From positions 1 to 11,687 of the forward strand of contig CALISW010000148.1 in NCBI GenBank assembly GCA_938041655.1: 11,687 nucleotides of DNA, in the 5' to 3' direction. Under the pieces are notes generated by a model that saw only the letters and a list, made by a program, of their open reading frames with translations, did no database searches and was not told the origin of the DNA. The first letter of the stretch is position 1. Every line of letters starts with the position of its first letter. The DNA comes from an uncultured Thiotrichales bacterium. GTDB taxonomy: Bacteria > Pseudomonadota > Gammaproteobacteria > CAZUMV01. Below, one piece after another: positions 1 through 11,687 of this stretch. The translations under genes were made by a program, and so were the position numbers.

Positions 1-1
1 A

Positions 2-883
2 GATGTACCAGTGGGTAAGTATTCTCACAAAGACATCTCACGTCATGCAGACATGTCAGTGCTTGATGGTCTTGACGGCTTGTTGGAATCTTTTCCAAAA
101 TTAAGCCGTAAAGGTAATCGTGAACTAGGTAGAAAAGCAGCATTGCAGTGCGGAACATTGGGTGGTGGAAACCACTTCATTGAAATCTGCCTGGATACTG
201 AAGATCGTGTGTGGGTGATGTTGCATTCAGGTTCACGTGGTATTGGAAACGTTATCGGTCGTTACTTCATCGAATTGGCGAAAGAAGATATGCGTGTCCA
301 CCACATCAACCTGAAAGATCGTAACCTGGCGTATTTGAGCGAAGGTACGAAGCACTTCGATGATTACGTGACAGCGGTAAGTTGGGCGCAAAACTACGCG
401 CGCGCAAACCGCGATACGATGATGAAGCTGGTTCTGAATGTACTACGACGCCACTTGGGCAAGTTTGGTATTAAGGAACAAGCGATCAATTGTCATCACA
501 ACTACGTGCAAAAAGAGAACCACTTTGGTGAAAATGTTTGGGTAACCCGTAAAGGTGCAGTATCTGCACGTGAGGGTGAGCTAGGCATTATCCCGGGTTC
601 AATGGGTGCACGCAGCTTTATTGTGCGTGGTAAAGGTAACGCCGAATCTTTCCACTCTTGTTCTCATGGTGCGGGTCGTGTGATGTCTCGCGGCAAAGCA
701 AAAGATGCGATCACTGTGGATCAGCACAAGCAAGCTACTGAAGGTGTTGAATGTCGTAAAGATGCCGGTGTACTCGACGAGTCTCCAGCAGCGTACAAAG
801 ACATTGATGCTGTTATGGCGGCGCAAGAGGATTTGGTAGAAGTGGTACATACCCTGAAACAAATCCTGTGCGTGAAAGGTTAG
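2..883 (+). CDS. rtcB: RNA-splicing/repair ligase RtcB, C-terminal ~290 aa. The 5' end lies upstream of the window; frame 2 is open from position 2.
   Basis: The translated ORF carries the RtcB signature GGGNHFIE and the conserved SHGAGR and NCHHNY motifs. No start codon is reachable in frame inside the window. Confidence 0.9.
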   Translation, partial: DVPVGKYSHKDISRHADMSVLDGLDGLLESFPKLSRKGNRELGRKAALQCGTLGGGNHFIEICLDTEDRVWVMLHSGSRGIGNVIGRYFIELAKEDMRVHHINLKDRNLAYLSEGTKHFDDYVTAVSWAQNYARANRDTMMKLVLNVLRRHLGKFGIKEQAINCHHNYVQKENHFGENVWVTRKGAVSAREGELGIIPGSMGARSFIVRGKGNAESFHSCSHGAGRVMSRGKAKDAITVDQHKQATEGVECRKDAGVLDESPAAYKDIDAVMAAQEDLVEVVHTLKQILCVKG

Positions 884-914
884 TCCGCCTTTTTCTAAAC
901 AATGGCTAACAAGT

Positions 915-940
915 CCGGGCAGTCTCTGCCCGGCATTTTT
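915..940 (+). terminator. Rho-independent terminator after rtcB
   Basis: Hairpin ccgggcag-tctc-tgcccgg (915-933) is followed by cattttt (934-940). Confidence 0.6.
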
Positions 941-1013
941 GGCTCATGGCATAGTGGCTGTGCAGCGGGCTTTTAACCCGCAGAGATAGGTTCGATTCCT
1001 ATTGGGCCAACCA
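940..1013 (+). tRNA. tRNA-Lys (anticodon TTT), CCA encoded
   Basis: Hand fold. Acceptor tggctca/tgggcca with one G-U pair. D-stem gcat/gtgc with a 7-nt loop containing GG. Anticodon arm gcggg-cttttaa-cccgc, which matches the E. coli Lys loop. T-arm atagg-ttcgatt-cctat. Discriminator A, then CCA. Confidence 0.8.
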
Positions 1014-1019
1014 AATTAC

Positions 1020-1093
1020 GCGGGCATAGCTCAATGGTAGAGCGATAGGTTGCCAACTTGTTGATGTGGTTTCGATTACCACTGTCCGCTCCA
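1020..1093 (+). tRNA. tRNA-Gly (anticodon GCC), CCA encoded
   Basis: Acceptor gcgggca/tgtccgc. D-arm tagctcaatggtagagc closely resembles E. coli tRNA-Gly. Anticodon loop ttgccaa. T-arm gtggt-ttcgatt-accac. Confidence 0.85.
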
Positions 1094-1099
1094 AATAAT

Positions 1100-1175
1100 T
1101 ACTCGATAGCTCAATTGGAAGAGTGCTGTTCTTACACATCAGAGGTTGTCGGTTCGATCCCGACTCGAGTAACCA
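1100..1175 (+). tRNA. tRNA-Val (anticodon TAC), CCA encoded
   Basis: Acceptor tactcga/tcgagta is perfect. D-arm gctc-aattggaa-gagt. Anticodon arm ctgtt-cttacac-atcag has a U-U mismatch at 30:40. T-arm gtcgg-ttcgatc-ccgac. Confidence 0.75.
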
Positions 1176-1337
1176 CATTCGTATCACCGAGACGGTGATG
1201 CACGGCGTGAAACTTCACGCTAAACCATGGTCAAGACGGTTCATTATTTAGCGGCTTTGGGTTCTTTGAGTCCCGGCTGGCGTGCAAGTGCCTTGCATGT
1301 TGTACGTACCAAATAATGTTCACGCTTAACCGCCAAC

Positions 1338-1411
1338 TGGGAATTAGCTCAAATGGGTAGAGCAACAGAATCATAATCTGTGTGTTGTCGGTTCGATTCC
1401 GACATTCTCCA
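1338..1411 (+). tRNA. tRNA with CAT anticodon (elongator Met or Ile2/lysidine type), no CCA encoded
   Basis: D-arm gctc-aaatgggta-gagc. Anticodon arm acaga-atcataa-tctgt is perfect. T-arm gtcgg-ttcgatt-ccgac. Acceptor tgggaat/attctcc has a U1-C72 mismatch. Confidence 0.7.
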
Positions 1412-1412
1412 A

Positions 1413-1474
1413 CAGCCTTGAAACGGCTCTATGGCAAGTCTGAGAAGACCAGGGTTCGACTCCCTAACTTGGCG
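1413..1474 (+). pseudogene. tRNA 3'-portion or tRNA-like minihelix. It has an anticodon-arm-like hairpin (loop ttgaaac, GAA), a GAGA-tetraloop hairpin, a T-arm and an acceptor 3' strand, but no 5' acceptor or D-arm.
   Basis: Hairpin agcc-ttgaaac-ggct (1414-1428). Hairpin gtct-gaga-agac (1438-1449). T-arm aggg-ttcgact-ccct (1451-1465). The 3' strand acttggc (1467-1473) can pair with ggcaagt (1433-1439). No complementary 5' acceptor exists upstream, where the previous tRNA sits. Confidence 0.35.
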
Positions 1475-1788
1475 AGAAATCGCCCACAACGCGCTCGTTT
1501 CCCGTATCAGTTTTGAAATTCGATGTTTGAGTTTCTCTATTGGTACAGCGACGTGATCGCCGGTTGATATCGGTCTGATGAGAGCGATCTTGTATCAACA
1601 TTTCTTCCGACAAGATTAGATCCATGCGGTTTGTGGTTCGGTCGCGTTCGACGATCTGTTCATAGTTGATTCGACTCATCAACGTTATTGATCCGCTTTT
1701 TCTTCGTGGAAATGAGCGCACCTAAATTTTTTATGCCTGTGGTTTTGTAGCCATGGGGTTTTTTATCAACCAACCAAAAGGAGGTGAT

Positions 1789-3081
1789 ATGTCTATAGGC
1801 GCTGATAACAAGGCGGAAGTTGAACGGGTGATTAATTTGCGAAAAGCCAGAGCAGTGCAAGACAGCAAACAATCACCTCGTTCACAAAGCAAAATCATGC
1901 CGTTTAAACACGGTTCTATTAACGAAAAAGGAGAACGTAGTATGTTATTTTTTTCAACTTTTATTGTGCGTAAGCACGAACGCGGTCTCCTGTACAAGAA
2001 TGGCGATTTTATTCGTTTCTTGCTACCGGGGACTTACCGCTACTTCAATTTGCTACGCCGTTACACGGTGGAGCGCTTTGATGCGAGCACACCGGCATTC
2101 GATCACCGATTGATCGACTACCTGGTTGAAGCTGAGCGAGACTCGGTAGATCAACTGTTTGAGGTCATTCAAACCGCAGCGGACGAAATTGCGGTGGTTT
2201 ACTTAAACGAACAGGTAGATACCGTACTTGGACCAGCACAGCGAAAGCTCTATTGGAAAGGGTTGGTGACCACACGAGTAGAAGTGTTTAAGACCAATGA
2301 GAGTCTTGAGCTTGAGCCACGTCTGGCAAAACGTTTGATTACAGGTGCTGATGCACGTGTGCTTAATCTTGCTGACCGTGTGGTCTACGCGCGTATCGTT
2401 CCAGAAAGCCACATCGGTTTGTTCTACGTTGACGGTGTACTCACCAAGACGTTGGATGCCGGTATGCACGCCTTCTGGAAGAATGACCGAGCGTTGAATA
2501 TTGATTTGGTAGATCTTCGTGTGAAAACACTCGAAGTACAGGGTCAGGAAATCCTGACCAAGGACAAAGTTAATCTTCGGATTAACGTGACCGCTACCTA
2601 CCAATTTGAAGATGCGCTCAAAGCCATTCGAACGGTTAAAGACCCATTGGATCACTTGTATAAGGAAATCCAGTTTGGTCTTCGTGCTGTTGTAGGTACA
2701 CGCACACTTGATGCCTTACTCGAGGACAAAACTGCTATTGACCGTACAGTGGCAGAGTACCTTGGAACACGCTTTGCCGACATCGGTATCGCGGTTCGCA
2801 GTATTGGTGTTAAGGACATCATCTTGCCAGGTGATATGAAAGACTTGCTTGGCAAAGTGGTGGAAGCTGAAAAAGCGGCACAAGCGAATGTTATTCGTCG
2901 CCGTGAAGAAACAAACGCAACTCGCTCATTGCTCAACACCGCGAAAGTGATGGAAAGTAATGCTGTGGCATTGCGTTTGAAAGAACTCGAGACCCTGGAA
3001 AAAGTGACAGAGAACGTTGGCAAACTCACTGTTCACGGTGGTCTTGATGGTGTGCTCAATGATCTGGTTCGCTTGAAGTAG
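1789..3081 (+). CDS. SPFH/band-7 (stomatin/prohibitin/HflKC-like) domain protein. A strong SD (GGAGG at 1780-1784) precedes ATG 1789. An alternative internal start at 1942 (MLFFSTFIV...) also has an AGGAG SD.
   Basis: A 442-aa ORF. The central region shows SPFH hallmarks (…LRINVTATYQFEDALKAIRTV…; …VVEAEKAAQANVIRRREETNA…), which are typical of band-7 family C-termini. Confidence 0.8.
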   Translation: MSIGADNKAEVERVINLRKARAVQDSKQSPRSQSKIMPFKHGSINEKGERSMLFFSTFIVRKHERGLLYKNGDFIRFLLPGTYRYFNLLRRYTVERFDASTPAFDHRLIDYLVEAERDSVDQLFEVIQTAADEIAVVYLNEQVDTVLGPAQRKLYWKGLVTTRVEVFKTNESLELEPRLAKRLITGADARVLNLADRVVYARIVPESHIGLFYVDGVLTKTLDAGMHAFWKNDRALNIDLVDLRVKTLEVQGQEILTKDKVNLRINVTATYQFEDALKAIRTVKDPLDHLYKEIQFGLRAVVGTRTLDALLEDKTAIDRTVAEYLGTRFADIGIAVRSIGVKDIILPGDMKDLLGKVVEAEKAAQANVIRRREETNATRSLLNTAKVMESNAVALRLKELETLEKVTENVGKLTVHGGLDGVLNDLVRLK

Positions 3082-3096
3082 ATCCGAGTTCGCCTG

Positions 3097-3120
3097 AGGA
3101 CAATACGGATTGTCCTTATT
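3097..3120 (+). terminator. Hairpin terminator after the SPFH gene
   Basis: An 8-bp stem aggacaat/attgtcct with loop acgg is followed by tatt. The U-tract is weak. Confidence 0.45.
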
Positions 3121-3155
3121 GCTGGGTGTCTTGGTCAAGGCCGAGACACTCTCTT

Positions 3156-3231
3156 GGTACGCTGGGTGTAAGTTAACACCATCATGCTCATAACATGGAT
3201 GATCGTGGTTCAAATCCACGGCGTACCACCA
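3156..3231 (+). tRNA. tRNA with CAT anticodon (Met or Ile2), CCA encoded
   Basis: Acceptor ggtacgc/gcgtacc is perfect. D-stem ggtg/cacc with loop taagttaa, which has no GG. Anticodon arm tcatg-ctcataa-catgg. T-arm cgtgg-ttcaaat-ccacg. Confidence 0.75.
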
Positions 3232-3233
3232 CA

Positions 3234-3309
3234 CGATGCATAGCTCAATTGGAAGAGCACCCTGCTACGAACGGGGAGGTTGTAGGTTCGAATCCTGCTG
3301 TGTCGTCCA
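3234..3309 (+). tRNA. tRNA-Arg (anticodon ACG), CCA encoded
   Basis: Acceptor cgatgca/tgtgtcg with two G-U pairs. D-arm gctc-aattggaa-gagc. Anticodon arm ccctg-ctacgaa-cgggg. T-arm gtagg-ttcgaat-cctgc. Confidence 0.8.
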
Positions 3310-3316
3310 TTTTTAT

Positions 3317-3390
3317 TCGGTGCTGGTCTAATGGGAAGACACGAGACTTTGACTTTCGTGATCGTGGTTCGAATCCACGGCGCCGATCCA
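3317..3390 (+). tRNA. tRNA-Gln (anticodon TTG), CCA encoded
   Basis: Acceptor tcggtgc/gcgccga. D-arm gtct-aatggga-agac. Anticodon arm cgaga-ctttgac-tttcg. T-arm cgtgg-ttcgaat-ccacg. Confidence 0.8.
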
Positions 3391-3392
3391 AT

Positions 3393-3463
3393 GCACTTGT
3401 CTGTTGGACAGCGAGAAGATTCCAAACCTTCAAGACTGGGTTCGAATCCTAGCAAGTGCTCCA
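3393..3463 (+). tRNA. Atypical tRNA-like gene with a CCA (Trp) anticodon, a miniaturised D-arm and a 31:39 A-C mismatch. It may be a pseudo-tRNA or a non-canonical tRNA.
   Basis: Acceptor gcacttg/caagtgc is perfect and CCA is encoded. T-arm ctggg-ttcgaat-cctag. Anticodon region gaaga-ttccaaa-ccttc resembles the E. coli Trp loop cTCCAAAa. The D-region is only about 15 nt (ctgt-tgg-acag). Confidence 0.45.
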
Positions 3464-3467
3464 ATTT

Positions 3468-3542
3468 GATGTTGTGGCTGAATGGTTAGGCGCGAGACTG
3501 CAAATCTTGTTTATTCCGGTTCAAGTCCGGACGACATCTCCA
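3468..3542 (+). tRNA. tRNA-Cys (anticodon GCA), CCA encoded
   Basis: Acceptor gatgttg/cgacatc. D-arm gctg-aatggtt-aggc. Anticodon arm cgaga-ctgcaaa-tcttg. T-arm tccgg-ttcaagt-ccgga. Confidence 0.8.
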
Positions 3543-3548
3543 AATACT

Positions 3549-3624
3549 ATCCTCGAAGGTCAACTGGATGAGCACCGAGCTTCTAACTCGGCGGTTTCAG
3601 GTTCGAGTCCTGACGGGGATGCCA
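3549..3624 (+). tRNA. tRNA-Arg (anticodon TCT), CCA encoded
   Basis: Acceptor atcctcg/cggggat. Anticodon arm ccgag-cttctaa-ctcgg is perfect. T-arm tcagg-ttcgagt-cctga. The D-stem has one mismatch. Confidence 0.8.
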
Positions 3625-3707
3625 ACTTAAAGTTTTTTTGAGGCAGGGCGCGTGTTGCACATCTGCGGGTGTAACCGGTGTTTGCGCACCTCGGTACCCG
3701 AATGGGT

Positions 3708-3738
3708 GGACAATAGAGCGTTGCTCCGTCCTGTTTTG
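3708..3738 (+). terminator. Candidate intrinsic terminator between the tRNA sub-clusters
   Basis: Nested hairpin ggac-aata-gagc-gtt-gctc-c-gtcc followed by tgttttg. Confidence 0.35.
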
Positions 3739-3757
3739 AAAATCCAATATTACTTAC

Positions 3758-3836
3758 AGCCGCCTGAAGGGAATTGGCTATACCTACCTGTCTTAGAAAC
3801 AGGTGTTTCTCGGTTCGAGTCCGAGGGCGGCTACCA
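3758..3836 (+). tRNA. tRNA with Leu anticodon TAG but type-I architecture (5-nt variable loop). It has a Leu-like D-arm and A73; CCA is encoded.
   Basis: Acceptor agccgcc/ggcggct is perfect with A1-U72. D-region tgaagggaattggctatacct carries a GAATTGG D-loop like E. coli tRNA-Leu. Anticodon arm cctgt-cttagaa-acagg is perfect. Variable loop tgttt. T-arm ctcgg-ttcgagt-ccgag. Confidence 0.65.
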
Positions 3837-3841
3837 ACTTT

Positions 3842-3920
3842 ATGGACCTGATGGGAATTGGTTATACCTCGGTGTTTCAAACTCACCGGCATCCCGGTTC
3901 GACTCCGGGGGTCCATACCA
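3842..3920 (+). tRNA. Paralogous type-I tRNA with Leu anticodon CAA, a U-U at 31:39, A73 and CCA encoded
   Basis: Acceptor atggacc/ggtccat is perfect. D-region tgatgggaattggttatacct. Anticodon arm ggtgt-ttcaaac-tcacc. Variable loop ggcat. T-arm cccgg-ttcgact-ccggg. Confidence 0.6.
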
Positions 3921-3926
3921 ACACAC

Positions 3927-4004
3927 GCGCAGCTGATGGGAACTGGCATACCTGGTTGATTTAAAACCAACCGTTTCCGCGTTCGATCCGCGGGCTGCGC
4001 ACCA
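3927..4004 (+). tRNA. Paralogous type-I tRNA with Leu anticodon TAA, an A-C at 31:39, A73 and CCA encoded
   Basis: Acceptor gcgcagc/gctgcgc is perfect. D-region tgatgggaactggcatacct. Anticodon arm gttga-tttaaaa-ccaac. Variable loop cgttt. T-arm ccgcg-ttcgatc-cgcgg. Confidence 0.6.
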
Positions 4005-4009
4005 TCATT

Positions 4010-4227
4010 GGGGACGTTTGCAAATGGATGCTACTACCAAAAACGTAAGTGACCGGGTAGCGGGTAACACCGGCGTCGGCTAAGTGAACTAGCGGTATGG
4101 TTGAGGATGGCAGGTGACTGCTCTGCGTAAGGGTTACTCACTGGCGCCCGTTTCCAACGACTGGTTCTTCCGGTAGTAATGCACCGGTACTGACGTTATG
4201 CGGGTTCGATACCCGTCGTCTCCACCA
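4010..4227 (+). pseudogene. Split or interrupted tRNA. A 5' acceptor with U8 and a D-arm lies at 4010-4038. A long variable arm, T-arm, 3' acceptor and CCA lie at 4172-4227. About 133 nt intervene at the anticodon-loop position.
   Basis: ggggacg (4010-4016) pairs 7/7 (one G-U) with cgtctcc (4217-4223), followed by A and CCA. D-hairpin gca-aatgga-tgc has GG in the loop. The 5' strand actacc (4033-4038) pairs with ggtagt (4172-4177). T-arm gcggg-ttcgata-cccgt (4200-4216). No uninterrupted tRNA ending at 4227 can be folded. Confidence 0.4.
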
Positions 4228-4233
4228 ATTATT

Positions 4234-4317
4234 ACGGGTGTGGTGAAACGGTATACACGCTGTCGCGAGAAGGCAGTGGCACAAGTCTTGTCGGTTCGAC
4301 TCCGGCCACCCGTACCA
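4234..4317 (+). tRNA. Type-II tRNA-Leu (anticodon GAG) with a 13-nt variable arm and the unusual C33; CCA is encoded.
   Basis: Acceptor acgggtg/cacccgt is perfect. D-arm gtg-aaacggtata-cac. Anticodon arm ctgtc-gcgagaa-ggcag. Variable arm tggcacaagtctt. T-arm gtcgg-ttcgact-ccggc. Discriminator A. Confidence 0.6.
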
Positions 4318-4373
4318 CAAACACATTCACACAATTCAAATTACTATTTTTTAATCGTATACAGGAAAAGGAA

Positions 4374-4946
4374 ATGAATACGTTAATCCTTAAGTTGGAC
4401 ATTGCTGGTCAACCAGTCGGCTGGATTTCACGAGAAGAAGGCGCATTGCTTTATTGTCGTGATCAAGTTGCTTGGGAAGCGGGCGAACAAGTGGTTCGTT
4501 TGCATGGCGGAGAGTCTCGTCTAACTGGTACGAGATCTTTTCTGGATATCAATACGATTGTCGCTACCCGATCGCATGACAAAGGTCTTCTGAGCAAAGG
4601 CGATGTTCCATGTCTGACGAATAAGCAATTATTCTCTCGCGACGAATACATGTGTATGTACTGCGGGAAGCAGTACGGTAATTCATTACTGACACGCGAT
4701 CATGTTATGCCCTTGTCACGAGGAGGTCTAGATATTTGGGAAAATGTCGTTACGGCATGCCGCTCATGTAATCAGACCAAAGACAATGCGTTATTGAGCG
4801 AGATCAATATGAAATTAATCGCAGTCCCATACGCACCTAATCGTGCAGAGGGATTGATTTTAACTAACCGCAGAATTTTAGCGGACCAAATGGCATTCCT
4901 TAAAACCCGGGTAGGGAAGGGAAGTCGACTGCGAGTCGCAGCGTAG
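4374..4946 (+). CDS. HNH endonuclease
   Basis: A 190-aa ORF with a canonical HNH core CMYCGK…TRDHVMPLSRGG…WENVVTACRSCNQTK. An AGGA-type RBS precedes the ATG. Confidence 0.85.
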   Translation: MNTLILKLDIAGQPVGWISREEGALLYCRDQVAWEAGEQVVRLHGGESRLTGTRSFLDINTIVATRSHDKGLLSKGDVPCLTNKQLFSRDEYMCMYCGKQYGNSLLTRDHVMPLSRGGLDIWENVVTACRSCNQTKDNALLSEINMKLIAVPYAPNRAEGLILTNRRILADQMAFLKTRVGKGSRLRVAA

Positions 4947-4965
4947 CTGCGGCTTGGATTTTTTT
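4927..4965 (+). terminator. Tandem hairpins followed by a T-run after the HNH gene
   Basis: ctgcg-agt-cgcag and gcagc-gta-gctgc are followed by ggcttggattttttt. Confidence 0.4.
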
Positions 4966-5042
4966 AAAGTGGCAAACTTTGAGATGTTAAAGGTTTGTCT
5001 TACCTCACACAATCATATGCGATCGTATGCTAATGTCGATCT

Positions 5043-5585
5043 ATGATAAATATAGATCGCAAAACATCTCCTTTTCAGAATACTAGTTTCGAGATATTTG
5101 TAAAGTCTCATGGCTGGCATTTTGATTGCCATGACGAGAAGTCATTGTTACTGAAAACTATTTCAGTAAATAATATTCAATTGAAAGATATCCTTCACAG
5201 CAATAATCCAGTGGTATGGAATGATGAAATCACTTCTGGGTTAGAGGGGCTTCGAGATGAAGGATTTATTCTACTTGATGCTCAGGTTCTACGTACATTA
5301 ATGAAGTTACAATCTCTTCCAAAAGAATGGGCGGAAATCGCAGATTCTGATTGGATTGGTGGGGGCTCTATCAGGTTTGATGGGAGTATCATTACTTCAT
5401 CAAATGATCCATCTTTTAGAAGAGTATTCAGTCCCATGTTTAGTCGTGGCATATGGATGTTAGGAACAAATGATGTGCTGTTCAGCCCAGATGAGATACG
5501 TAGGTATGAAGAATCTGAAAATCCTGTAAACCCACGACATTTCCGTCAGCTTACTGCTGTTATAAATCCATCGCTATGCATTTAG
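5043..5585 (+). CDS. Hypothetical protein (180 aa), no recognisable motifs
   Basis: Long ORF in an AT-rich region. The start position is uncertain. Confidence 0.4.
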   Translation: MINIDRKTSPFQNTSFEIFVKSHGWHFDCHDEKSLLLKTISVNNIQLKDILHSNNPVVWNDEITSGLEGLRDEGFILLDAQVLRTLMKLQSLPKEWAEIADSDWIGGGSIRFDGSIITSSNDPSFRRVFSPMFSRGIWMLGTNDVLFSPDEIRRYEESENPVNPRHFRQLTAVINPSLCI

Positions 5586-6163: not shown

Positions 6164-6544
6164 ATGGAGTCAAGAACGACAGCACAGGTTGCTGGCGAAT
6201 CATTTTCATTACTCACTGGGTTGGATTTAGTGGATAACCACCTAGATGAAGAATCGCCACAGAGGGATGAGCCTAGCTCTGTAGAAAAGAGTGAGATATA
6301 TAATGAATATCGTAACTATGAAGAGCTATTACCGTGGCCCAGCGTAGAAAAGGGCACCGCTTGGTGGGCGGATAATTCAGCTATGTTCCATGGAGATAAA
6401 GGATATCTGGCGGGTTCAGAAATCACGCTAGAAAATCTAAACGAAGTACTAAAAATAGGAACTCAAACCCAGCGTTATGCTGCAACTTTAGAATTAGCGA
6501 GAATAAAGCCTAATGATTCTGTAATAGATACCCAAGTTTTTTAG
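6164..6544 (+). CDS. Hypothetical protein (126 aa), acidic N-terminus
   Basis: Only an ORF call; no recognisable motif. Confidence 0.4.
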   Translation: MESRTTAQVAGESFSLLTGLDLVDNHLDEESPQRDEPSSVEKSEIYNEYRNYEELLPWPSVEKGTAWWADNSAMFHGDKGYLAGSEITLENLNEVLKIGTQTQRYAATLELARIKPNDSVIDTQVF

Positions 6545-6656
6545 GATAATCACTATCTTGGGTAAACTGTACTAATTCAGACTTGATCTGATACATCGCT
6601 TGAATTTTTGGAATCGTAGTGATCGTAGGTAACAGATTGCGTGCCTAATAATGCAT

Positions 6657-7271
6657 CTATTGTGCTACCTGAACTGTTGGATTAAACCGATAGTGCCCCG
6701 TGATTGTTGCGGTAAACAACATATCTTCTAACTTGGGTCCTGAGCCGATGTTGTGAACAATAAGTGGGTTACCTGAAGCTGTAGATAACGTGTCAGAAAC
6801 AATACCAATATGTGGTAGGTTACCTACTAACGACCAAGTAACAATATCCCCTGCTTTGTAATCTGATGAATTACTAGATACTGGAAGTTTTTGACCGTGT
6901 CTCTCGAAGAATACCGCTAAATTTGGAACACGGCGGTGGTCAATATTTCTATCAGTTTTATTCATACCCCAAATGCGTTTTGATGGATATTCGGAAAAAG
7001 CACGAGTCATATCCTCATGGACTAGAGCTTGTAAATCAACGCCCAAGCTTCGATAGGATCGAATAACCACATCCGTACAGACACCAATATTTGAAGGTAC
7101 ATCACCGTTAGGATAATCAATAACCCTGTACCTACCGTCATAAGTAATATTTTGCGTAGTTCTATATAATGCAGCTTCAACTAAATCCTCTTCAAAACCA
7201 GCCCAAACAAAGGTTATGAAAACCGAGGATAAAACAATAAATATGCCTTGGTATATAAACTTAATATTCAT
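6657..7271 (-). CDS. Secreted DUF1287-like protein (204 aa)
   Basis: N-terminal signal peptide MNIKFIYQGIFIVLSSVFITFVWA. Motifs YDGRYRVIDYPNGDVPSNIGVCTDVVIRSYR and LVHED, as I recall them for the DUF1287 family. Confidence 0.6.
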   Translation of the reverse strand: MNIKFIYQGIFIVLSSVFITFVWAGFEEDLVEAALYRTTQNITYDGRYRVIDYPNGDVPSNIGVCTDVVIRSYRSLGVDLQALVHEDMTRAFSEYPSKRIWGMNKTDRNIDHRRVPNLAVFFERHGQKLPVSSNSSDYKAGDIVTWSLVGNLPHIGIVSDTLSTASGNPLIVHNIGSGPKLEDMLFTATITGHYRFNPTVQVAQ

Positions 7272-7365
7272 AACGAAGCATGAAATAGTTCCGAAAAGGG
7301 GTTAACGTTTTTGGAATCGTTCTGATTGAAAGGAGCATTTTCGCGCCTGCTTATTTGTTGAATTT

Positions 7366-8454
7366 TCAATGATTGTACAGTAACCAATTATTAGCAGCTA
7401 TAATGGCCGGATCCAGATTCATCGCCAGCTCTGGTGAAAAACTTATGTGCTCATCTGGCTGCAAATTCTTATTAAAAACAATATTGTTTCTGTCCGCATA
7501 ATAGCTCACGGCAATTGACATAATTAGCTCTTCACCAATGCTTTCCCAATTTGTGACCGTCGTAAGACCTCCTGTAGGCTCACCGAAGAATCTTGAATTA
7601 GAACGCCCCTTAAAGGTAGTTGCCACCGCTTCGCCTGAGCTCACTGTGTAGCGACTGATAAGCACAGCAACATCCGCATCACAGGGGATATCATTCGAAA
7701 CAGGCAATGGGATCTCATTATAGTCGCGAAGGTAAAAATTACCTGCCTTCATCAACCAATTCCCAATGATTTCACCCTTAGCGTTAGCCTCACCACCGAC
7801 CACTCCATTGCAGAGTAAAGGACCTAAGCCAGCCATCATCGGGTGCATGTTTCCACCCATGTTATAGCGGAGATCAAGGATCCAGTTTTTTGCACCTTTT
7901 TTCGCAAGTAGCTCTAAGTTGGATCTAATTGAGATAGCGTGCTCATTTAAATCTTCACCAGAGAAAATTCCTTTAATTTTTATATATCCGGTATGATCAC
8001 CCAGTAATTCAAAATGATGCTCATGCTCCAAGTTGAATCGATGCACAATACTCTGATCTATAGTTCGACTATCTCTATTCCGTTCATTACCCCATTCTGT
8101 AAAATGGGCAAACACTTGGTTATCGTAAAAAAAGCGCGCATGCGGGTCTCGAAGATGATTTAGCGCCGTACTCAAGGGTCTTTTCATATCTTCTTTTGTC
8201 TGAATATCTGCGATCTGCTGTTCCAACTCTTCTTCGATCGCAACCCAGTCGACATCACTAGTAAAAAGAGACTGCGCCTTGAGTTCCACAAGCGCGGATC
8301 GTACGAGCTGTTTGCGCGCCTGAATTGCAGTGGTAATATTTTGATCAGAAGTTTGATTGAGTTCAGTCGGCGGCTCCAAAGGAGCATTAACCGACTCTGC
8401 ACAGCCACCTAAGAATGCAACAAATAGAACACTTGATAACACTACTAGTTTCAT
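7366..8454 (-). CDS. S41-family peptidase, lipoprotein. The likely true start is the internal Met at 8454 (MKLVVLSSVLFVAFLGGC lipobox); the ORF track extends to 8640.
   Basis: S41 catalytic-serine region VLISRYTVSSGEAVATTFKG. GAGAGG RBS 6-7 nt upstream of ATG 8454. The N-terminal 62 aa of the longer ORF are not protein-like. Confidence 0.75.
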   Translation of the reverse strand: MKLVVLSSVLFVAFLGGCAESVNAPLEPPTELNQTSDQNITTAIQARKQLVRSALVELKAQSLFTSDVDWVAIEEELEQQIADIQTKEDMKRPLSTALNHLRDPHARFFYDNQVFAHFTEWGNERNRDSRTIDQSIVHRFNLEHEHHFELLGDHTGYIKIKGIFSGEDLNEHAISIRSNLELLAKKGAKNWILDLRYNMGGNMHPMMAGLGPLLCNGVVGGEANAKGEIIGNWLMKAGNFYLRDYNEIPLPVSNDIPCDADVAVLISRYTVSSGEAVATTFKGRSNSRFFGEPTGGLTTVTNWESIGEELIMSIAVSYYADRNNIVFNKNLQPDEHISFSPELAMNLDPAIIAANNWLLYNH

Positions 8455-9099
8455 AGAAACCTCTCTGAGAACGCTTGCTACGTTAAATATAATATCATGC
8501 CTCTGAACAATTTCATGCTGTCGAGAAAACACCAAGATACCCTTCGAACCCAACTTATTAGCGTGAGAAACTGAGCGCCTCGACTTCTGATGTCTCAATA
8601 GACCGCATCCATTGTTTTTTCGGTACCGTTTCGAAAGCATTATGATTTAGATGCGAAGATCGTTCTCTTTAACCATAAGCATTCATCAGACCAAGCGTTG
8701 GTTAAGGCACAAAACCCTTATTATCGGAATGAGCTACCTAAAGAAGATAATGGAAAAATTTGCTTCAATGGTCTATTGAAAGGCAGTTCTAATGCGCGCT
8801 GTCTTAGAATTAAGATATAACAAACGGACGAGATATAACATTCGCTAGCTATAACTTGTTAACAGTCTCTATGAAAGTCTTAATTTATAAGGCTAATACT
8901 GGATGGTTGTGAAAATTACATACCCTGTCCTTGTAACCGAATAACCGACAGCTAACCTAAAAGTTGTCTGTATATTGACAAGCAGAAAAAGTGAAGATCA
9001 ATTCACTAAGAGCGCACTAAAGTATGAGCCTGATCACGGTTTAATTCCTATTCATTCTTTACATTGTCTGCAATAAAAAATTATCATTTGGAGAAAAAT

Positions 9100-9498
9100 A
9101 TGGGTCTACCCGAAAAGCGTGTTATAGCAAGTGTTGAAAGTGATCTTTTTCCTGGTATGAAGGAATGGATTGTTGAATTTTCAGGTCAAGAAATACCATT
9201 CGAAGCTGATTATGAAAGTCTTGGTAGCTTCTCTGATCAAGAGCATTTAAACAGTTCTAATGATTTTTGTGACCGTGTGTTTCGGGATTTTTTCATTGGC
9301 CTTGCTGATGTCTGTTCAGATGAAGCTGGTAAAGCAGCGTTTTTTGAGAAGGTCGAAAACATCTATTTCAAATGCAAAGATACTAATCCTACTGTGAGTA
9401 TTGATGATAAAACTATGAATGTTGGAATGACATATTTAGATGAGTCATCACGCCCATCACGCTCTGAATACGTTGCTATGATCGAAGAGCTATTATAG
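9100..9498 (+). CDS. Hypothetical small acidic protein (~132 aa)
   Basis: GGAG RBS 7 nt before ATG 9100. The ORF track starts earlier, at 9064. Confidence 0.45.
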   Translation: MGLPEKRVIASVESDLFPGMKEWIVEFSGQEIPFEADYESLGSFSDQEHLNSSNDFCDRVFRDFFIGLADVCSDEAGKAAFFEKVENIYFKCKDTNPTVSIDDKTMNVGMTYLDESSRPSRSEYVAMIEELL

Positions 9499-9513
9499 AA
9501 AATTCGATACTTA

Positions 9514-9954
9514 TTAATTGTAGTAGCTCAGACCCGGTCTGAACATTACCGATTTATACGGAAGCCAGTATTGTAATTTCAAGTTAGCATAACTCTTTTT
9601 ACCTGGATGGGTTCGCTCAGTTATGTAATTCAGCCGCCATTCTTCAAGATCGATTTGCAAGTTATTAATATTAGTGTGGGTCTTCTTACCTAATATTACC
9701 TGATAAAACTTCTGCAGGATGCTCTTGTGGTGGCCTATCGATAACACCATTAGTTTACAACGTCTTCACTTTGGCCCGGTGTCGACACAAATGTTGCACT
9801 TCGTGACGTATGTATAGGTACCTCGAAAAGTCTTTTCATGGTTTGGTGCGGCACGGCACAGGACATCAAGAATAACGTTGTTGCGATTGAACTTTAGAAT
9901 CTGGACATAATATTGGATTCGATCAAGGCTCGAGCTCAATGAATTTGCGTCCAA
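9514..9954 (-). pseudogene. Decayed C-terminal fragment of an rve (DDE integrase-core) transposase of IS481/IS3 type, frameshifted
   Basis: Two adjacent minus-strand ORFs in different frames. 9954-9766 carries …ILKFNRNNVILDV…, which resembles the integrase-core consensus …ERFNRTLK…. 9750-9514 carries …LEEWRLNYITERTHPG…, which resembles W…YN.ERPH.ALG. Confidence 0.4.
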
Positions 9955-10417
9955 ATTCTTCGAGGAGTGTGTTTTGGATGTTATTTAGAAAAGCGGCGTG
10001 AGCTTCCCTGCCAATATCTTTAGTCATTATTTCAACTCGTATATAGGATTTTTGGTGTAATGGCGAAACGCTAAGTCTTAGCATTGGTATTTTTCCTGCA
10101 TTTTTTAGCGATTTCATGCATAACCTTTGAGGTCCATATTTTGACCAATGTTTATCGCAGTCATAGGTTTCCATGTCATTTTGATTTCCCCAATTCTCAA
10201 TTACATCGGTGACGAAAATCTTTTTATCTCGTTGGGCGATGACTCTTATCGTGTTGTGACGCACACTACCCAACTCTATTATAGACCGGAAAATCAAAAC
10301 TGATCCGACGCTTGTTGAGTAGAGTGCTCTCTTCATTGACGGGAAAGACCAGATTATCATCACGGATGCGATAGCGATTCCTATGAGTAACTTCCTTATT
10401 GAGCCGATTTTATTCAT
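9923..10417 (-). CDS. Hypothetical protein with an N-terminal transmembrane anchor (164 aa)
   Basis: Hydrophobic segment LLIGIAIASVMIIWSF near the N-terminus. No other motif. Confidence 0.4.
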   Translation of the reverse strand: MNKIGSIRKLLIGIAIASVMIIWSFPSMKRALYSTSVGSVLIFRSIIELGSVRHNTIRVIAQRDKKIFVTDVIENWGNQNDMETYDCDKHWSKYGPQRLCMKSLKNAGKIPMLRLSVSPLHQKSYIRVEIMTKDIGREAHAAFLNNIQNTLLEEFGRKFIELEP

Positions 10418-10478
10418 TTCGGTTTTATACCTATATATTATTAACTGCTGTACGAAAGTGATTCGGTCAAAGTATCTT

Positions 10479-10844
10479 TTATATGATCGCTTTAAGAGTC
10501 TTTAATACACTACCTATTTTTGTAGTAATGCCATTTATAGTAGCTACGTCTTTTATTGGGTTCAGTATAAGCTCGTATTCCGTGTTAATACTTGGGTAAC
10601 GAGCAAGCACTAACATAATTGAGCTTATAGTTTCTTTGGCGGACAATAAATGCCATACGTCGCCTTCAAGACTGAGAATTTCAGTGTTCGAAACTGTGTC
10701 AAATATTACCGGTGCATCAATCCAATGAGACATCCTCATTTCATGAGAAACGGTTGTCAGCTCATACCTTCCGTTATGCAGATATCTTTTACTATTCATT
10801 CTGGTTTCCTGCCAGTTTCCTTCAGGTTTAAGAAGTCTCCGCAA
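10479..10844 (-). CDS. Hypothetical protein (121 aa)
   Basis: ORF only. Confidence 0.35.
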   Translation of the reverse strand: MRRLLKPEGNWQETRMNSKRYLHNGRYELTTVSHEMRMSHWIDAPVIFDTVSNTEILSLEGDVWHLLSAKETISSIMLVLARYPSINTEYELILNPIKDVATINGITTKIGSVLKTLKAII

Positions 10845-10973
10845 GTTTCTTTTTCCCGAAGTAGGTATAGACTTTGCATAAGACTTAACTCGATTACTCG
10901 AAGGCGTTTAAGGGCTTCAAAAAATACTCACAGCGTTTATAGAAAACGCTAGTTTACACTTGGCTAAGGAGCC

Positions 10974-11201
10974 TCAATAAACAAGGCCTACAATCTGACT
11001 TATTGAGATCAAGAGAGTTCTTGCATCGTAGTTGTCGCCTTCCAGTTCACTGAGCTGAATTGTGTCGGGTGATTTTGCTTCTCCCACATTTAACACACCA
11101 GTCATTGCATGACCCGTTGCCAAGAAAATTGTCACGTGTTTGCCATTTGATTTTCTAATGTAATAACTAATTGGCTGTTGCGATGAAAATTCAAAACTCA
11201 T
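10974..11201 (-). CDS. Hypothetical small protein (75 aa) downstream of nadV, possibly a beta-rich Sm-like fold
   Basis: ORF only, with alternating hydrophobic pattern (HVTIFLATGHAMTGVL…TLLISISQIVGL). Confidence 0.3.
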   Translation of the reverse strand: MSFEFSSQQPISYYIRKSNGKHVTIFLATGHAMTGVLNVGEAKSPDTIQLSELEGDNYDARTLLISISQIVGLVY

Positions 11202-11342
11202 GGGGTTCTCGAAATTTGGGGAAAAGGATTTTGACTATATTTGAATCTAGCATATCAAAATGTGATGAATGTCGAAGGTTTACTTGCGTGGCTCCAACAA
11301 TTGGAGACGTCCCTGTCTCAATTGTTGCTTGGTTTTTATAGC

Positions 11343-11687
11343 CTAACCGTCTCTACTGACCACCCGTTCTCTAATATCAGAGAAATTCTCGTCGCGTAGA
11401 AGTTTGCCATCTATGAATACTGGCTCAAGCATATTTTTAAAGGTACCGAGCTCGGATTCTCTGATGGTTCTGATATCATTCGCATCTTTAATGACAGCGA
11501 GCTTGCCTTTTTTGGAGCGCTTCCCTTTATCTGTGATCGGATCTTTAAAGACATCTCTCCATTCACCATTTACTCTGATAGCGGAAGCTTTCATGGCAAA
11601 CTTCATAGTGTCTCTATCGACCTTCTGTAATAACTCCCCACCCATACCGAAGGCGACATTATCGGCTGCCAAGCCGCGCTCATTCAT
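11343..11687 (-). CDS. nadV: Nicotinamide phosphoribosyltransferase (NAMPT/NadV), C-terminal 114 aa. The 5' part lies beyond the window end.
   Basis: …ADNVAFGMGGELLQKVDRDT…FKDPITDKGKRSKKGKL… matches the conserved NAMPT C-terminus (human …[20 protein letters not shown]…VFKDPVADPNKRSKKGRL…). The Met at 11687 is internal. Confidence 0.85.
   Translation of the reverse strand: MNERGLAADNVAFGMGGELLQKVDRDTMKFAMKASAIRVNGEWRDVFKDPITDKGKRSKKGKLAVIKDANDIRTIRESELGTFKNMLEPVFIDGKLLRDENFSDIRERVVSRDG

What the first reader, a model, noticed from the sequence alone, without database searches (positions are those of the whole stretch)
1..11687. RtcB, two non-canonical tRNA arrays, HNH and NadV: candidate phage or mobile-element module countering tRNA-cleaving and NAD-depleting defences
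At least fourteen tRNA or tRNA-like genes sit in two tight clusters (940-1474 and 3156-4317). They are interleaved with protein genes rather than lying in an rRNA operon. They are directly preceded by rtcB, which seals 2',3'-cyclic-P/5'-OH breaks such as those left by anticodon nucleases of the PrrC, colicin E5/D and RloC type. A homing-type HNH endonuclease follows the arrays. A nampt/nadV gene sits at the right edge; it is the key enzyme of phage NAD-reconstitution pathways that counter SIR2/TIR defences. Several of the tRNAs have deviant anticodon arms, which is the reported way phage tRNAs evade anticodon nucleases. The module may therefore be an integrated counter-defence island or part of a large Vibrio-type phage genome (KVP40-like phages carry nadV and about 30 tRNAs).
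Basis: partly seen in the sequence, partly recalled or inferred. Interest (0 to 1): 0.75.

Follow-up and report, generated by a model that had tools for sequence, protein, structure and literature searches.

The report
RNA-repair island with spare tRNA genes
The left 5 kb of this bacterial contig is a horizontally acquired island combining an RNA-sealing enzyme (RtcB), a soluble vault-like scaffold protein with its own tRNA-like RNA, 13 spare tRNA genes and a nuclease that travels with tRNA arrays; it is a new combination of two predicted systems, not a phage, and the NAD gene at the far edge is unrelated.

Summary
The window holds 14 tRNA-type genes in two clusters, preceded by rtcB, followed by an HNH gene, with a partial nadV at the right edge.

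The window is a complete 11.7-kb metagenome contig. The unit is bases 1 to about 4962. [quoted passage not shown]

Relatives of the Band-7 gene lie in at least 583 stretches of bacterial genomes, many of them 3.5-5.9 Mb chromosomes of marine Gammaproteobacteria. None was found in 50,697 phage genomes or in IMG/VR. The b7a-tRNA plus Band-7 pair is the constant core. Arrays, HNH and RtcB join it in about 40% of loci, in conserved order.

The same HNH family flanks a 37-tRNA array on a Burkholderia megaplasmid and sits inside a jumbo-phage tRNA cluster.

nadV lies 6.4 kb away, beyond the homology and GC boundary, and is absent from all related loci.

The island therefore fuses two described systems: the RtcB–Band-7–b7a-tRNA repair system (predicted 2016) and HNH-linked 'L-arrays' (2021). 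The function, tRNA repair plus tRNA back-up under translational stress, is inferred and untested.

The parts
2..883 (+). RtcB RNA ligase, C-terminal 293 aa (N-terminus lies beyond the contig end)
   Evidence: PF01139 E 6e-100. Catalytic motifs present. Relatives 57-74% identical sit upstream of the SPFH gene in L031, L066, L067, L068, L070, L073, L074 and L080, and downstream of it (61%) in L064.
915..939 (+). terminator-like hairpin plus T-run after rtcB
940..1175 (+). array A: tRNA-Lys(TTT) 940-1013, Gly(GCC) 1020-1093, Val(TAC) 1100-1175
   Evidence: ARAGORN and Rfam, 61-64 bits. The same Lys-Gly-Val order precedes the b7a-tRNA in L002, L009 and L011; in L005 Gly is not called.
1176..1337 (+). 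structured spacer of unknown nature
   Evidence: MFE -57.5 kcal/mol, z -3.5 against shuffles. No Rfam hit.
1338..1411 (+). [quoted passage not shown]
   Evidence: Rfam tRNA 56.4 bits. A homologue is the last tRNA before the SPFH gene in 64 of the 69 related loci tested (plus the window itself). The cloverleaf is supported by covariation. The anticodon is hypervariable.
1412..1485 (+). conserved four-hairpin tail of the b7a-tRNA: H1 1414-1428, H2 1438-1449, T-arm mimic 1451-1465, H4 1471-1484
   Evidence: Across 28 loci, 91% of cells are paired against 39-49% when partners are slid; 13 of 15 pairs show compensatory changes; 0/500 shuffles reach the observed score.
1736..1765 (+). terminator-like hairpin plus T-run just before the SPFH ribosome-binding site
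1789..3081 (+). soluble SPFH/Band-7 ('slipin') protein, 430 aa: N-terminal beta-repeats, SPFH domain, long helix
   Evidence: PF01145. RBS AAAGGAGG lies before the ATG at 1789, and this exact product is on record. No transmembrane segment. AF2 model pLDDT 70.7. Stomatin and major-vault-protein fold matches.
3156..3624 (+). array B, first block: Met(CAT) 3156-3231, Arg(ACG) 3234-3309, Gln(TTG) 3317-3390, Trp(CCA) 3393-3463, Cys(GCA) 3468-3542, Arg(TCT) 3549-3624
   Evidence: The order Arg-Gln-Trp-Cys-(Ile)-Arg is shared with L002, L005 and L011.
3625..3757 (+). structured spacer; the segment lies inside the 87%-identical block shared with L087, and is absent at this position in L006
   Evidence: z -2.7. 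BLAST blocks.
3758..4004 (+). three tRNA-Leu genes without a long variable arm: TAG 3758-3836, CAA 3842-3920, TAA 3927-4004
   Evidence: 48 unique sequences of this length class were collected from the loci, most sharing the same fold.
4010..4230 (+). about 215-nt RNA with tRNA-Ala-like ends (G3·U70, T arm, ACCA) and a structured insert of about 165 nt
   Evidence: About 80% conserved in L004, L006 and L009. 9 compensatory pairs among 4 sequences. The Rfam tmRNA match is sub-threshold: 17 bits against a cut-off of 47.
4234..4317 (+). tRNA-Leu(GAG), 84 nt, with a short variable-arm stem
4374..4946 (+). array-associated HNH endonuclease, 190 aa
   Evidence: HNH_5 and HNH. 58-66% identical homologues follow the arrays in about 20 loci, and 40-50% identical ones lie upstream of the SPFH gene in three (L064, L073, L077). 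Full-length homologues lie next to the 37-tRNA array of plasmid pM7012 and inside the tRNA cluster of jumbo phage SCTP-2.
4932..4966 (+). terminator-like hairpin plus T-run; right end of the island (homology with L087 stops at 4962)
   Evidence: GC drop

Best explanation
Bases 1 to about 4962 are a horizontally acquired island, integrated in a bacterial chromosome, that fuses two previously described modules.

(i) The RtcB / Band-7 / b7a-tRNA RNA-repair system: an RtcB 3'-phosphate/5'-OH RNA ligase, a soluble SPFH protein, and a dedicated tRNA-like RNA encoded just upstream of that protein.

(ii) A long tRNA array ('L-array') with its companion HNH endonuclease.

Proposed mechanism (inferred):
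- tRNAs are cut in the anticodon loop or otherwise depleted. The cause could be toxin-antitoxin RNases, colicin-type or abortive-infection anticodon nucleases, or translation inhibitors.
- RtcB reseals the 2',3'-cyclic-phosphate/5'-OH halves.
- The SPFH protein assembles into a soluble ring or cage, as other SPFH proteins and the major vault protein do. Together with the b7a-tRNA it acts as a scaffold, cofactor or decoy for that repair.
- The array supplies extra, sequence-divergent isodecoders that keep translation going.
- The HNH enzyme spreads or maintains the array.

Shown here: gene and RNA content, boundaries, conservation, synteny, RNA covariation, protein fold, and distribution across genomes.

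Inferred: every biochemical step, expression, and the trigger.
For: Anatomy.

Core pair: a b7a-type tRNA is the last tRNA before the SPFH gene in the window and in 64 of the 69 related loci tested. Its cloverleaf and four-hairpin tail are supported by covariation.

Co-occurrence: among 82 SPFH loci, 32 carry at least 4 tRNAs. Of these 32, 22 have the HNH and 18 an RtcB. Of the 50 loci without arrays, 4 have the HNH and 6 an RtcB.

Synteny: Lys-Gly-Val-b7a | SPFH | Arg-Gln-Trp-Cys-Arg-Leu×n | HNH is shared with Woeseiaceae-type loci that hold up to 28 tRNAs covering nearly all amino acids.

Island boundary: homology break at 4962, GC drop, terminator.

HNH family next to tRNA arrays on a conjugative megaplasmid and in a jumbo phage.

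Redundancy hint: L002 has a second tRNA-Phe(GAA) outside the array, and it is closer to E. coli tRNA-Phe than the array copy is.

Literature: the b7a-tRNA/Band-7/RtcB prediction is quoted in bioRxiv 10.1101/312249. L-arrays spread by HGT, carry a linked HNH, show rtcB in their neighbourhood, are induced under translational stress and aid survival in Anabaena (PMC8421152). An SPFH gene lies inside the P. aeruginosa rtc locus (PMC13086221).
Against: - No expression or biochemical data exist for any component. The b7a-tRNA has never been validated experimentally.
- RtcB is present in only 24 of 82 SPFH loci, and most minimal b7a+SPFH loci lack it within ±10 kb. The core pair may therefore work without RNA ligation.
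- Terminator-like hairpins separate rtcB, the b7a RNA and the SPFH gene, so co-transcription is not assured.
- No convincing sigma-70 promoter was found on the + strand of the island.
- Deleting the P. aeruginosa rtc-locus SPFH gene gave no phenotype in standard assays.
- Whether the array tRNAs are supernumerary in this host cannot be tested, because the contig is only 11.7 kb.
- The vault-protein resemblance rests on a medium-confidence model (pLDDT 70.7, TM 0.33-0.42).
Confidence: 0.6

Rival explanations
1. One reading: the whole window is a phage or mobile-element counter-defence module. RtcB and escape-variant tRNAs would defeat host anticodon nucleases, and NadV would restore NAD depleted by SIR2/TIR defences.
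For: RtcB, HNH and NadV all have PHROG families. Full-length HNH homologues occur in jumbo phages SCTP-2 and RsoM2USA and on megaplasmids. The closest relative, L087, has a PcfJ-like (conjugative-plasmid-type) gene next to HNH. The island moves horizontally.
Against: No nucleotide match in phages or plasmids. The SPFH core is absent from phage genomes and from IMG/VR but present in at least 583 stretches of bacterial genome sequence, many on 3.5-5.9 Mb chromosomes. No phage structural or replication gene and no integrase is in the window. NadV lies outside the island, on the other strand, and is absent from 80 related loci. The flank homologue sits in housekeeping context. The anticodon loops are canonical.
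Confidence: 0.1
2. Selfish or cryptic DNA: the tRNA array is a largely silent passenger, spread and maintained by the HNH homing endonuclease. It has merely landed around the tRNA-like b7a gene (a homing target) and provides no benefit to the host.
For: L-arrays are reported as poorly transcribed in most cases studied, and homing endonucleases such as SegB move tRNA clusters (PMC8421152). The arrays vary greatly in content between related loci, and some members look degenerate: odd loops, ARAGORN-only calls, long structured spacers. The b7a+SPFH core exists without arrays in 50 of 82 loci.
Against: Array order and individual tRNAs are conserved at 70-94% identity across hosts whose SPFH genes are only about 70% identical. 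13 of 14 window tRNAs keep intact cloverleaves and encoded CCA. The variant tRNA-Leu class is conserved across many loci, mostly with compensatory stem changes. The Anabaena array is induced and improves survival.
Confidence: 0.15
3. Decoy or sensor system: the b7a-tRNA, held by the SPFH assembly, acts as bait for anticodon nucleases. Its cleavage, or its protection of real tRNAs, is the function. RtcB and the arrays are optional add-ons.
For: The anticodon triplet is the most variable part of an otherwise strongly conserved RNA: 28 different anticodon strings among 64 b7a-tRNAs called (the window's included), and 15 loops of 6 or 8 nt that could not decode, while the flanking loop bases stay conserved. 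The core occurs without RtcB in most loci. A competitive-inhibitor role was proposed for the analogous tRNA-like domain of YrlA (PMC7790460).
Against: The variability could equally be relaxed constraint on three bases that have no function. No nuclease or effector gene is consistently linked in the loci inspected. There is no experimental evidence.
Confidence: 0.15

Closest known systems
RtcB – Band-7/SPFH – b7a-tRNA RNA-repair system (computational prediction, Burroughs & Aravind, Nucleic Acids Res 2016; quoted in bioRxiv 10.1101/312249)
   Same: An SPFH/Band-7 gene, preceded on the same strand by a tRNA-like gene that strongly resembles a real tRNA, with RtcB adjacent. All three are present here.
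   Different: Here the pair is embedded in two tRNA arrays and followed by an HNH gene. This work adds a covarying four-hairpin tail on the b7a-tRNA, a hypervariable anticodon, and a vault-protein-like fold for the protein. I could not read the 2016 paper, so some of this may already be in it.
L-arrays: long, horizontally transferred tRNA gene arrays, e.g. the Anabaena PCC 7120 trn operon (Santamaría-Gómez et al. 2021, PMC8421152); mycobacterial tRNA array units
   Same: Dense, same-strand, non-periodic tRNA cluster; patchy distribution; adjacent HNH endonuclease; rtcB in the neighbourhood. HNH homologues are found on Nostoc, Tolypothrix, Acaryochloris and Mycobacterium plasmids.
   Different: The array is split by a protein gene (SPFH) and its b7a RNA, which that paper does not mention. 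Three tRNA-Leu genes lack the long variable arm. A 215-nt tRNA-Ala-like RNA sits inside the array. Only 14 genes are visible because the contig ends in rtcB.
Salmonella rsr–yrlBA–rtcBA operon (Ro60 with tRNA-like Y RNA YrlA, regulated by RtcR)
   Same: An RtcB ligase encoded with a scaffold protein and a tRNA-mimicking non-coding RNA. The two were proposed to be functionally analogous.
   Different: No Rsr/TROVE protein is present. The Rfam YrlA model scores 19.9 bits against a cut-off of 69. No RtcR or RtcA lies upstream of RtcB in the isolate locus L070. The b7a RNA is a full cloverleaf rather than a Y RNA.
Eukaryotic vault particle (major vault protein with vault RNA and the TROVE protein TEP1)
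   Same: The protein has the order beta-sandwich repeats, SPFH-like shoulder, long helix. Among PDB chains only MVP aligns over the full query length. Both are soluble, and both are paired with a small structured RNA.
   Different: 430 aa against about 890 aa. Sequence identity is 12-16%. Assembly into a cage is not shown. The model is of medium confidence.
Phage tRNA clusters and the NadV/NatV NAD salvage of KVP40-like phages
   Same: A tRNA cluster with an HNH of the same family occurs in jumbo phage SCTP-2. A NadV-type fragment is present in the window.
   Different: There is no phage gene content or sequence match. NadV is outside the island and is not linked to it in any related locus.

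Membership tests
RtcB–Band-7–b7a-tRNA system | Gene for an SPFH/Band-7 domain protein | tested here: met
RtcB–Band-7–b7a-tRNA system | tRNA-like gene immediately upstream of the Band-7 gene on the same strand | tested here: met
   1338-1411, Rfam tRNA 56.4 bits. A homologous RNA sits in the same position in 64 of the 69 related loci tested. Covariation supports the fold.
RtcB–Band-7–b7a-tRNA system | RtcB ligase encoded adjacent | tested here: met
   2-883, PF01139 E 6e-100. Only 24 of 82 related loci have RtcB within reach.
RtcB–Band-7–b7a-tRNA system | The RNA is expressed and binds the Band-7 protein | not testable with these tools
   Never validated experimentally.
L-array (long horizontally transferred tRNA array) | Many same-direction tRNA genes separated by short spacers, non-periodic | tested here: met
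   10 tRNA genes in 1.16 kb and 4 in 0.47 kb, all on the + strand, with 13 different anticodons. Relatives have up to 28. The contig is truncated on the left.
L-array (long horizontally transferred tRNA array) | Adjacent HNH endonuclease of the array-associated family | tested here: met
   4374-4946. Homologues lie beside arrays in 22 of 32 array loci, on pM7012 and in phage SCTP-2.
L-array (long horizontally transferred tRNA array) | Patchy distribution and acquisition by horizontal transfer | tested here: met
   GC shift. Homology break at 4962 with different flanks in L087. Arrays are present in 32 and absent in 50 related SPFH loci.
L-array (long horizontally transferred tRNA array) | tRNAs are supernumerary to a housekeeping set | not testable with these tools
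   The window is the whole contig. The only hint is a second tRNA-Phe outside the array in L002.
Phage genome or prophage (KVP40-like) | Phage structural, replication or lysis genes, or sequence similarity to phage genomes | tested here: not met
Phage NAD-reconstitution pathway (NadV with an NMN adenylyltransferase partner) | NadV linked to the module and paired with NatV/NadM | tested here: inconclusive
   Only the C-terminal 114 aa of NadV are on the contig, and a partner gene would lie beyond the edge. Linkage to the island is not supported.
tmRNA (for the element at 4010-4230) | tRNA-Ala-like domain with G3·U70, T arm and CCA end | tested here: met
tmRNA (for the element at 4010-4230) | Conserved tag reading frame with resume and stop codons; score above the Rfam cut-off; detected by ARAGORN | tested here: not met
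   The candidate frame loses its stop in L004. Rfam gives 17 bits against 47. ARAGORN -m finds no tmRNA.
rtcR-regulated rtcBA operon | RtcA cyclase and RtcR activator next to rtcB | tested here: inconclusive
   The left side is not on the contig. Neither gene lies upstream of RtcB in the isolate locus L070.
Rsr/Y-RNA system | Ro60/TROVE gene and a YrlA-type RNA | tested here: not met
   No TROVE hit. YrlA scores 19.9 bits against a cut-off of 69.

The most novel reading that the evidence does not exclude
The SPFH protein is a bacterial, soluble, miniature counterpart of the major vault protein. It would form a cage or ring around its own tRNA-shaped RNA. The hypervariable anticodon of that RNA would be under diversifying selection as bait or decoy for anticodon nucleases. 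In the array-bearing form, the particle would be the hub of a self-contained emergency translation kit. That kit comprises RtcB, a near-complete set of nuclease-resistant variant tRNAs (including tRNA-Leu without the long variable arm) and a new 215-nt alanine-type tRNA-like RNA.
Probability: 0.15. Interest if true: 0.8.

Novelty: new variant of a known kind. Interest (0 to 1): 0.5.

Why it matters
Bacterial RtcB still has no agreed physiological substrate. Long tRNA arrays have been studied functionally in only a few organisms. The Band-7/b7a-tRNA prediction of 2016 has never been tested.

This locus shows that all three are physically joined, in conserved order, in many marine Gammaproteobacteria. 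That links two separate literatures and suggests a single 'damage-proof translation' island.

The analysis also yields concrete handles:
- a covariation-supported two-domain RNA;
- an anticodon that changes between near-identical copies;
- a soluble vault-like SPFH fold;
- a class of tRNA-Leu lacking the variable arm;
- two tractable organisms, Betaproteobacteria bacterium GR16-43 and P. aeruginosa (PaFlo8 in the rtc locus).

If the vault analogy holds, it would give a bacterial model for the unresolved function of vault and Ro ribonucleoproteins.

Tried and rejected
- Megablast of the whole window against phages and plasmids gave nothing.
- Exact-protein look-ups showed that the window is the entire contig, so neither edge can be extended.
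- SPFH against phage genomes (tblastn) and against IMG/VR gave nothing.
- PADLOC: no defence-system model matches RtcB, SPFH or the flank ORFs. HNH matches only generic HNH models such as PtuB, weakly.
- tmRNA reading of 4010-4230 was rejected as a membership claim: sub-threshold score, no ARAGORN call, stop codon not conserved.
- A group I intron in a tRNA-Ala was considered for the same element. There is no Intron_gpI hit at E ≤ 5, and from general knowledge an insert of about 165 nt is shorter than known group I introns.
- Y RNA/YrlA: no significant hit.
- NadV as a module member was rejected.
- The rtcR/rtcA context could not be seen in the window and is absent in L070.
- The small ORFs on the right flank gave no Pfam or PHROG hits.
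- The 2016 Burroughs & Aravind paper could not be retrieved. What I say about it comes from the quotation and from memory of its abstract.
- Host taxonomy stayed unresolved, because the S41 peptidase relatives carry no organism names.

Full report
**1. What is in the window**

The window is an entire 11,687-bp contig of a metagenome assembly. Its proteins are on record only from a contig of exactly this length, so nothing beyond either edge can be recovered.

ARAGORN tRNA genes at default settings and 14 at a slightly relaxed threshold. All are on the + strand, at 940-1411 and 3156-4317. Rfam's tRNA model confirms 10 to 12 of them above its curated cut-off.

The protein genes are as follows:
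- RtcB, C-terminal 293 aa, at 2-883.
- An SPFH/Band-7 protein at 1789-3081.
- An HNH endonuclease at 4374-4946.
- DUF1287 at 6657-7271, minus strand.
- An S41 peptidase at 7366-8640, minus strand.
- The C-terminal 114 aa of a NadV/NAMPT-type enzyme at 11343-11687, minus strand.

**2. Limits of the unit**

- GC is 0.45-0.52 up to about 5000 and 0.36-0.44 afterwards.
- The closest relative is L087, a 6.4-kb metagenome contig whose SPFH protein is 96% identical. It aligns with the window at 79-87% nucleotide identity from 362 to 4962 and not beyond. Its next gene is PcfJ-like, whereas the window continues with unrelated low-GC ORFs.
- Terminator-like hairpins with T-runs lie after rtcB (915-933), just before the SPFH ribosome-binding site (1736-1757) and after HNH (4932-4956).

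The unit is thus bases 1 to about 4962, cut on the left by the contig end.

nadV is 6.4 kb further on, on the other strand. It has no tblastn match in any of 80 related loci. A homologue of the neighbouring S41 peptidase lies among ordinary chromosomal genes: Mrp antiporter, FBPase, TonB/ExbD. nadV is a neighbour, not a component.

**3. Where relatives are found**

The SPFH protein has thousands of homologues at 50-75% identity, named 'slipin family protein' where a name exists.

A scan of one genome per species found at least 583 related stretches, and 80 were fetched. Most are marine Gammaproteobacteria MAGs: Woeseiaceae, Granulosicoccus, Pseudomonadales, Thiomargarita. Some are Burkholderiales. 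Many lie on 3.5-5.9 Mb chromosomes, and one is an isolate, Betaproteobacteria bacterium GR16-43.

By contrast:
- The window has no megablast hit in 50,697 phage genomes or 72,556 plasmids.
- The SPFH protein has no tblastn hit in phages.
- It has no relative in IMG/VR.

The phage reading is therefore not supported.

**4. The constant core: a tRNA-like RNA plus the SPFH gene**

In the window and in 64 of the 69 related loci tested for it, the last tRNA before the SPFH gene belongs to one family (GGAAATTAGCTCAG…GTTCGA…ATTTCC). It lies 250-640 nt upstream of the conserved start of the protein. In the window this RNA is the 'tRNA-Met(CAT)' at 1338-1411.

[quoted passage not shown] They described it together with a Band-7 protein and RtcB as an RNA-repair system analogous to Ro60/Y RNA. 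According to the source I could read, it has never been validated experimentally (bioRxiv 10.1101/312249). The 2016 paper itself is not in the library.

Three findings here go beyond that quotation.

(a) The anticodon is hypervariable. The cloverleaf is strongly supported by covariation, but the anticodon triplet is the most variable part of the RNA.
- There are 28 different anticodon strings among the 64 b7a-tRNAs called.
- 15 of them have 6- or 8-nt loops that cannot decode.
- Nine near-identical Woeseiaceae-type copies differ almost only at those positions.

(b) The RNA has a conserved tail. In 28 loci the tRNA is followed by a tail of about 75 nt forming four hairpins, one of them a T-arm mimic (GGTTCGAnTCC). 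In the window they lie at 1414-1428, 1438-1449, 1451-1465 and 1471-1484.
- 91% of cells are paired, against 39-49% when partners are slid.
- 13 of 15 pairs show compensatory changes.
- 0/500 shuffles reach the observed score.
- A second group of loci (Pseudomonadales type) has a different downstream hairpin set.

(c) The protein is soluble and vault-like.
- It has no transmembrane segment; the maximum 19-residue hydropathy is 1.18.
- The AlphaFold model (pLDDT 70.7) shows N-terminal beta-repeats (about 56-256), an SPFH domain and a 60-residue helix.
- By sequence only residues 237-409 match stomatin.
- The model is of medium quality, so I treat this as a lead.

**5. The accessory layer: tRNA arrays, HNH and RtcB**

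Of 82 SPFH loci, 32 carry at least 4 tRNAs. Of these 32, 22 have the HNH and 18 an RtcB. Among the 50 loci without arrays, the numbers are 4 and 6.

Full versions (L002, L005, L011) have 26-28 tRNAs covering nearly all amino acids. Their order is …Arg-Lys-Gly-Val-b7a | SPFH | Arg-Gln-Trp-Cys-Ile-Arg-Leu×4 | HNH | RtcB. The window shows Lys-Gly-Val-b7a | SPFH | Met-Arg-Gln-Trp-Cys-Arg-Leu-Leu-Leu-[215-nt RNA]-Leu | HNH, with RtcB upstream instead of downstream.

Two RtcB types occur. One is about 57-74% identical to the window's and is usually upstream. The other is about 30% identical and lies downstream of HNH.

Individual tRNAs are 70-94% identical between hosts whose SPFH genes are about 70% identical at the nucleotide level.

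The HNH family is the array-associated one:
- A full-length homologue lies directly after a 37-tRNA array on the conjugative megaplasmid pM7012 of Burkholderia sp. M701.
- Another lies inside the tRNA cluster of the 440-kb Salicola phage SCTP-2.
- HNH-domain matches fall on Nostoc, Tolypothrix, Acaryochloris and Mycobacterium plasmids.

This matches the 'L-arrays' of Santamaría-Gómez et al. (PMC8421152). Those are long, non-periodic, horizontally transferred arrays with a conserved HNH neighbour and rtcB in the neighbourhood. In Anabaena the array is silent until translation is impaired, is co-induced with rtcB, and then improves survival. That paper does not mention an SPFH/Band-7 gene. No searchable paper links tRNA arrays with SPFH proteins.

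**6. Unusual RNAs inside the array**

tRNA-Leu without the long variable arm. Three of the four tRNA-Leu genes (78-79 nt) lack the long variable arm that, from general knowledge, all bacterial tRNA-Leu have. They keep a Leu-like D region (GGGAAUUGG…AUACCU), A73 and CCA. Most of the 48 unique sequences of this length class collected from the loci share this design, with compensatory stem changes. The Leu genes of the pM7012 array are normal at 86-90 nt.

The 215-nt tRNA-Ala-like RNA at 4010-4230.
- It has a 7-bp acceptor stem with G3·U70, a D-like hairpin, a T arm and ACCA.
- About 165 structured nucleotides replace the anticodon arm.
- It is about 80% conserved in L004, L006 and L009, with nine compensatory pairs among only four sequences.
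- It resembles the tRNA-like domain of tmRNA. It nevertheless fails the tmRNA tests: Rfam gives 17 bits against a cut-off of 47, ARAGORN makes no call, and the only plausible tag frame loses its stop codon in L004.

Structured spacers. The spacers 1176-1337 and 3625-3757 fold better than shuffled controls, with z -3.5 and -2.7.

Anticodon arms. All loops are canonical.

**7. How it most likely works**

Shown: a mobile island that joins a catalytically intact RtcB (motifs), a soluble SPFH protein with a dedicated structured tRNA-like RNA, a set of divergent tRNAs, and an array-associated HNH.

Inferred: after tRNA cleavage or depletion, RtcB reseals cyclic-phosphate/5'-OH ends. The SPFH oligomer with b7a-tRNA serves as scaffold, cofactor or decoy. 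The arrays replenish the tRNA pool with extra isodecoders. One hint of redundancy is the second tRNA-Phe outside the array in L002. The HNH spreads or maintains the array.

Whether the island protects the host from competitors and phages, or serves a mobile element against host defences, cannot be decided from sequence. Its chromosomal abundance and absence from viral collections favour a host-side role.

Points against a strict repair function:
- RtcB accompanies only 24 of 82 SPFH loci.
- Terminators separate the genes.
- Deleting the SPFH gene embedded in the P. aeruginosa rtc locus gave no phenotype in standard assays (PMC13086221).

**8. Verdict**

The locus belongs to two known but barely studied kinds, and it is a fused variant of them with several undescribed RNA features. 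Interest is moderate. A specialist would recognise the components, but the physical fusion, the hypervariable b7a anticodon and the vault-like protein make an old prediction directly testable.

Noticed in passing
window 4010-4230 (also L004 12229-12453, L006 14107-14331, L009 12098-12321): A conserved RNA of about 215 nt with tRNA-Ala-like ends (G3·U70, T arm, ACCA) and a structured insert of about 165 nt where the anticodon arm should be. It resembles tmRNA only in the tRNA-like domain and fails the tmRNA tests. Function unknown.
   Followed up: partly
window 3758-4004; L002 11818-12141 and many other loci: A conserved class of tRNA-Leu genes (anticodons TAG, CAA, TAA, CAG, GAG; 77-79 nt) lacks the long variable arm but keeps a Leu-type D region and A73. 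Most of the 48 unique sequences of this length class share the fold.
   Followed up: partly
window 1338-1411 and the homologous position in 64 loci: The b7a-tRNA anticodon differs between otherwise near-identical copies. There are 28 anticodon strings, and 15 loops of 6 or 8 nt. The flanking loop bases stay conserved.
   Followed up: yes
window 1176-1337 and 3625-3757: Long spacers inside the arrays fold significantly better than shuffled sequence (z -3.5 and -2.7). They may be decayed tRNAs or processing elements. The second lies inside the block shared with L087 and is missing at this position in L006.
   Followed up: partly
window 6164-6544: An ORF of 126 aa matches only the C-terminal third (278-401 of 410) of NCBIfam TIGR02270. 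It looks like a gene fragment about 1.2 kb from the island boundary and may mark an old insertion or deletion event.
   Followed up: no
L070 (CP019169.1, Betaproteobacteria bacterium GR16-43, isolate chromosome) 6919-12301: A cultured organism carries RtcB, tRNAs, b7a-tRNA, SPFH and then an AAA-ATPase gene, with no RtcR or RtcA upstream. It is a possible experimental entry point.
   Followed up: partly
window 2-883; L083 14810-16219: The best NCBIfam models for both RtcB types are the 'intein-containing RtcB family' models, matched only over the extein part. No intein is visible in the window fragment.
   Followed up: no
L087 4929-6356: In the closest relative, the gene after HNH is PcfJ-like (PF14284, a family from conjugative plasmids). 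This hints that that copy sits on or next to a conjugative element.
   Followed up: no
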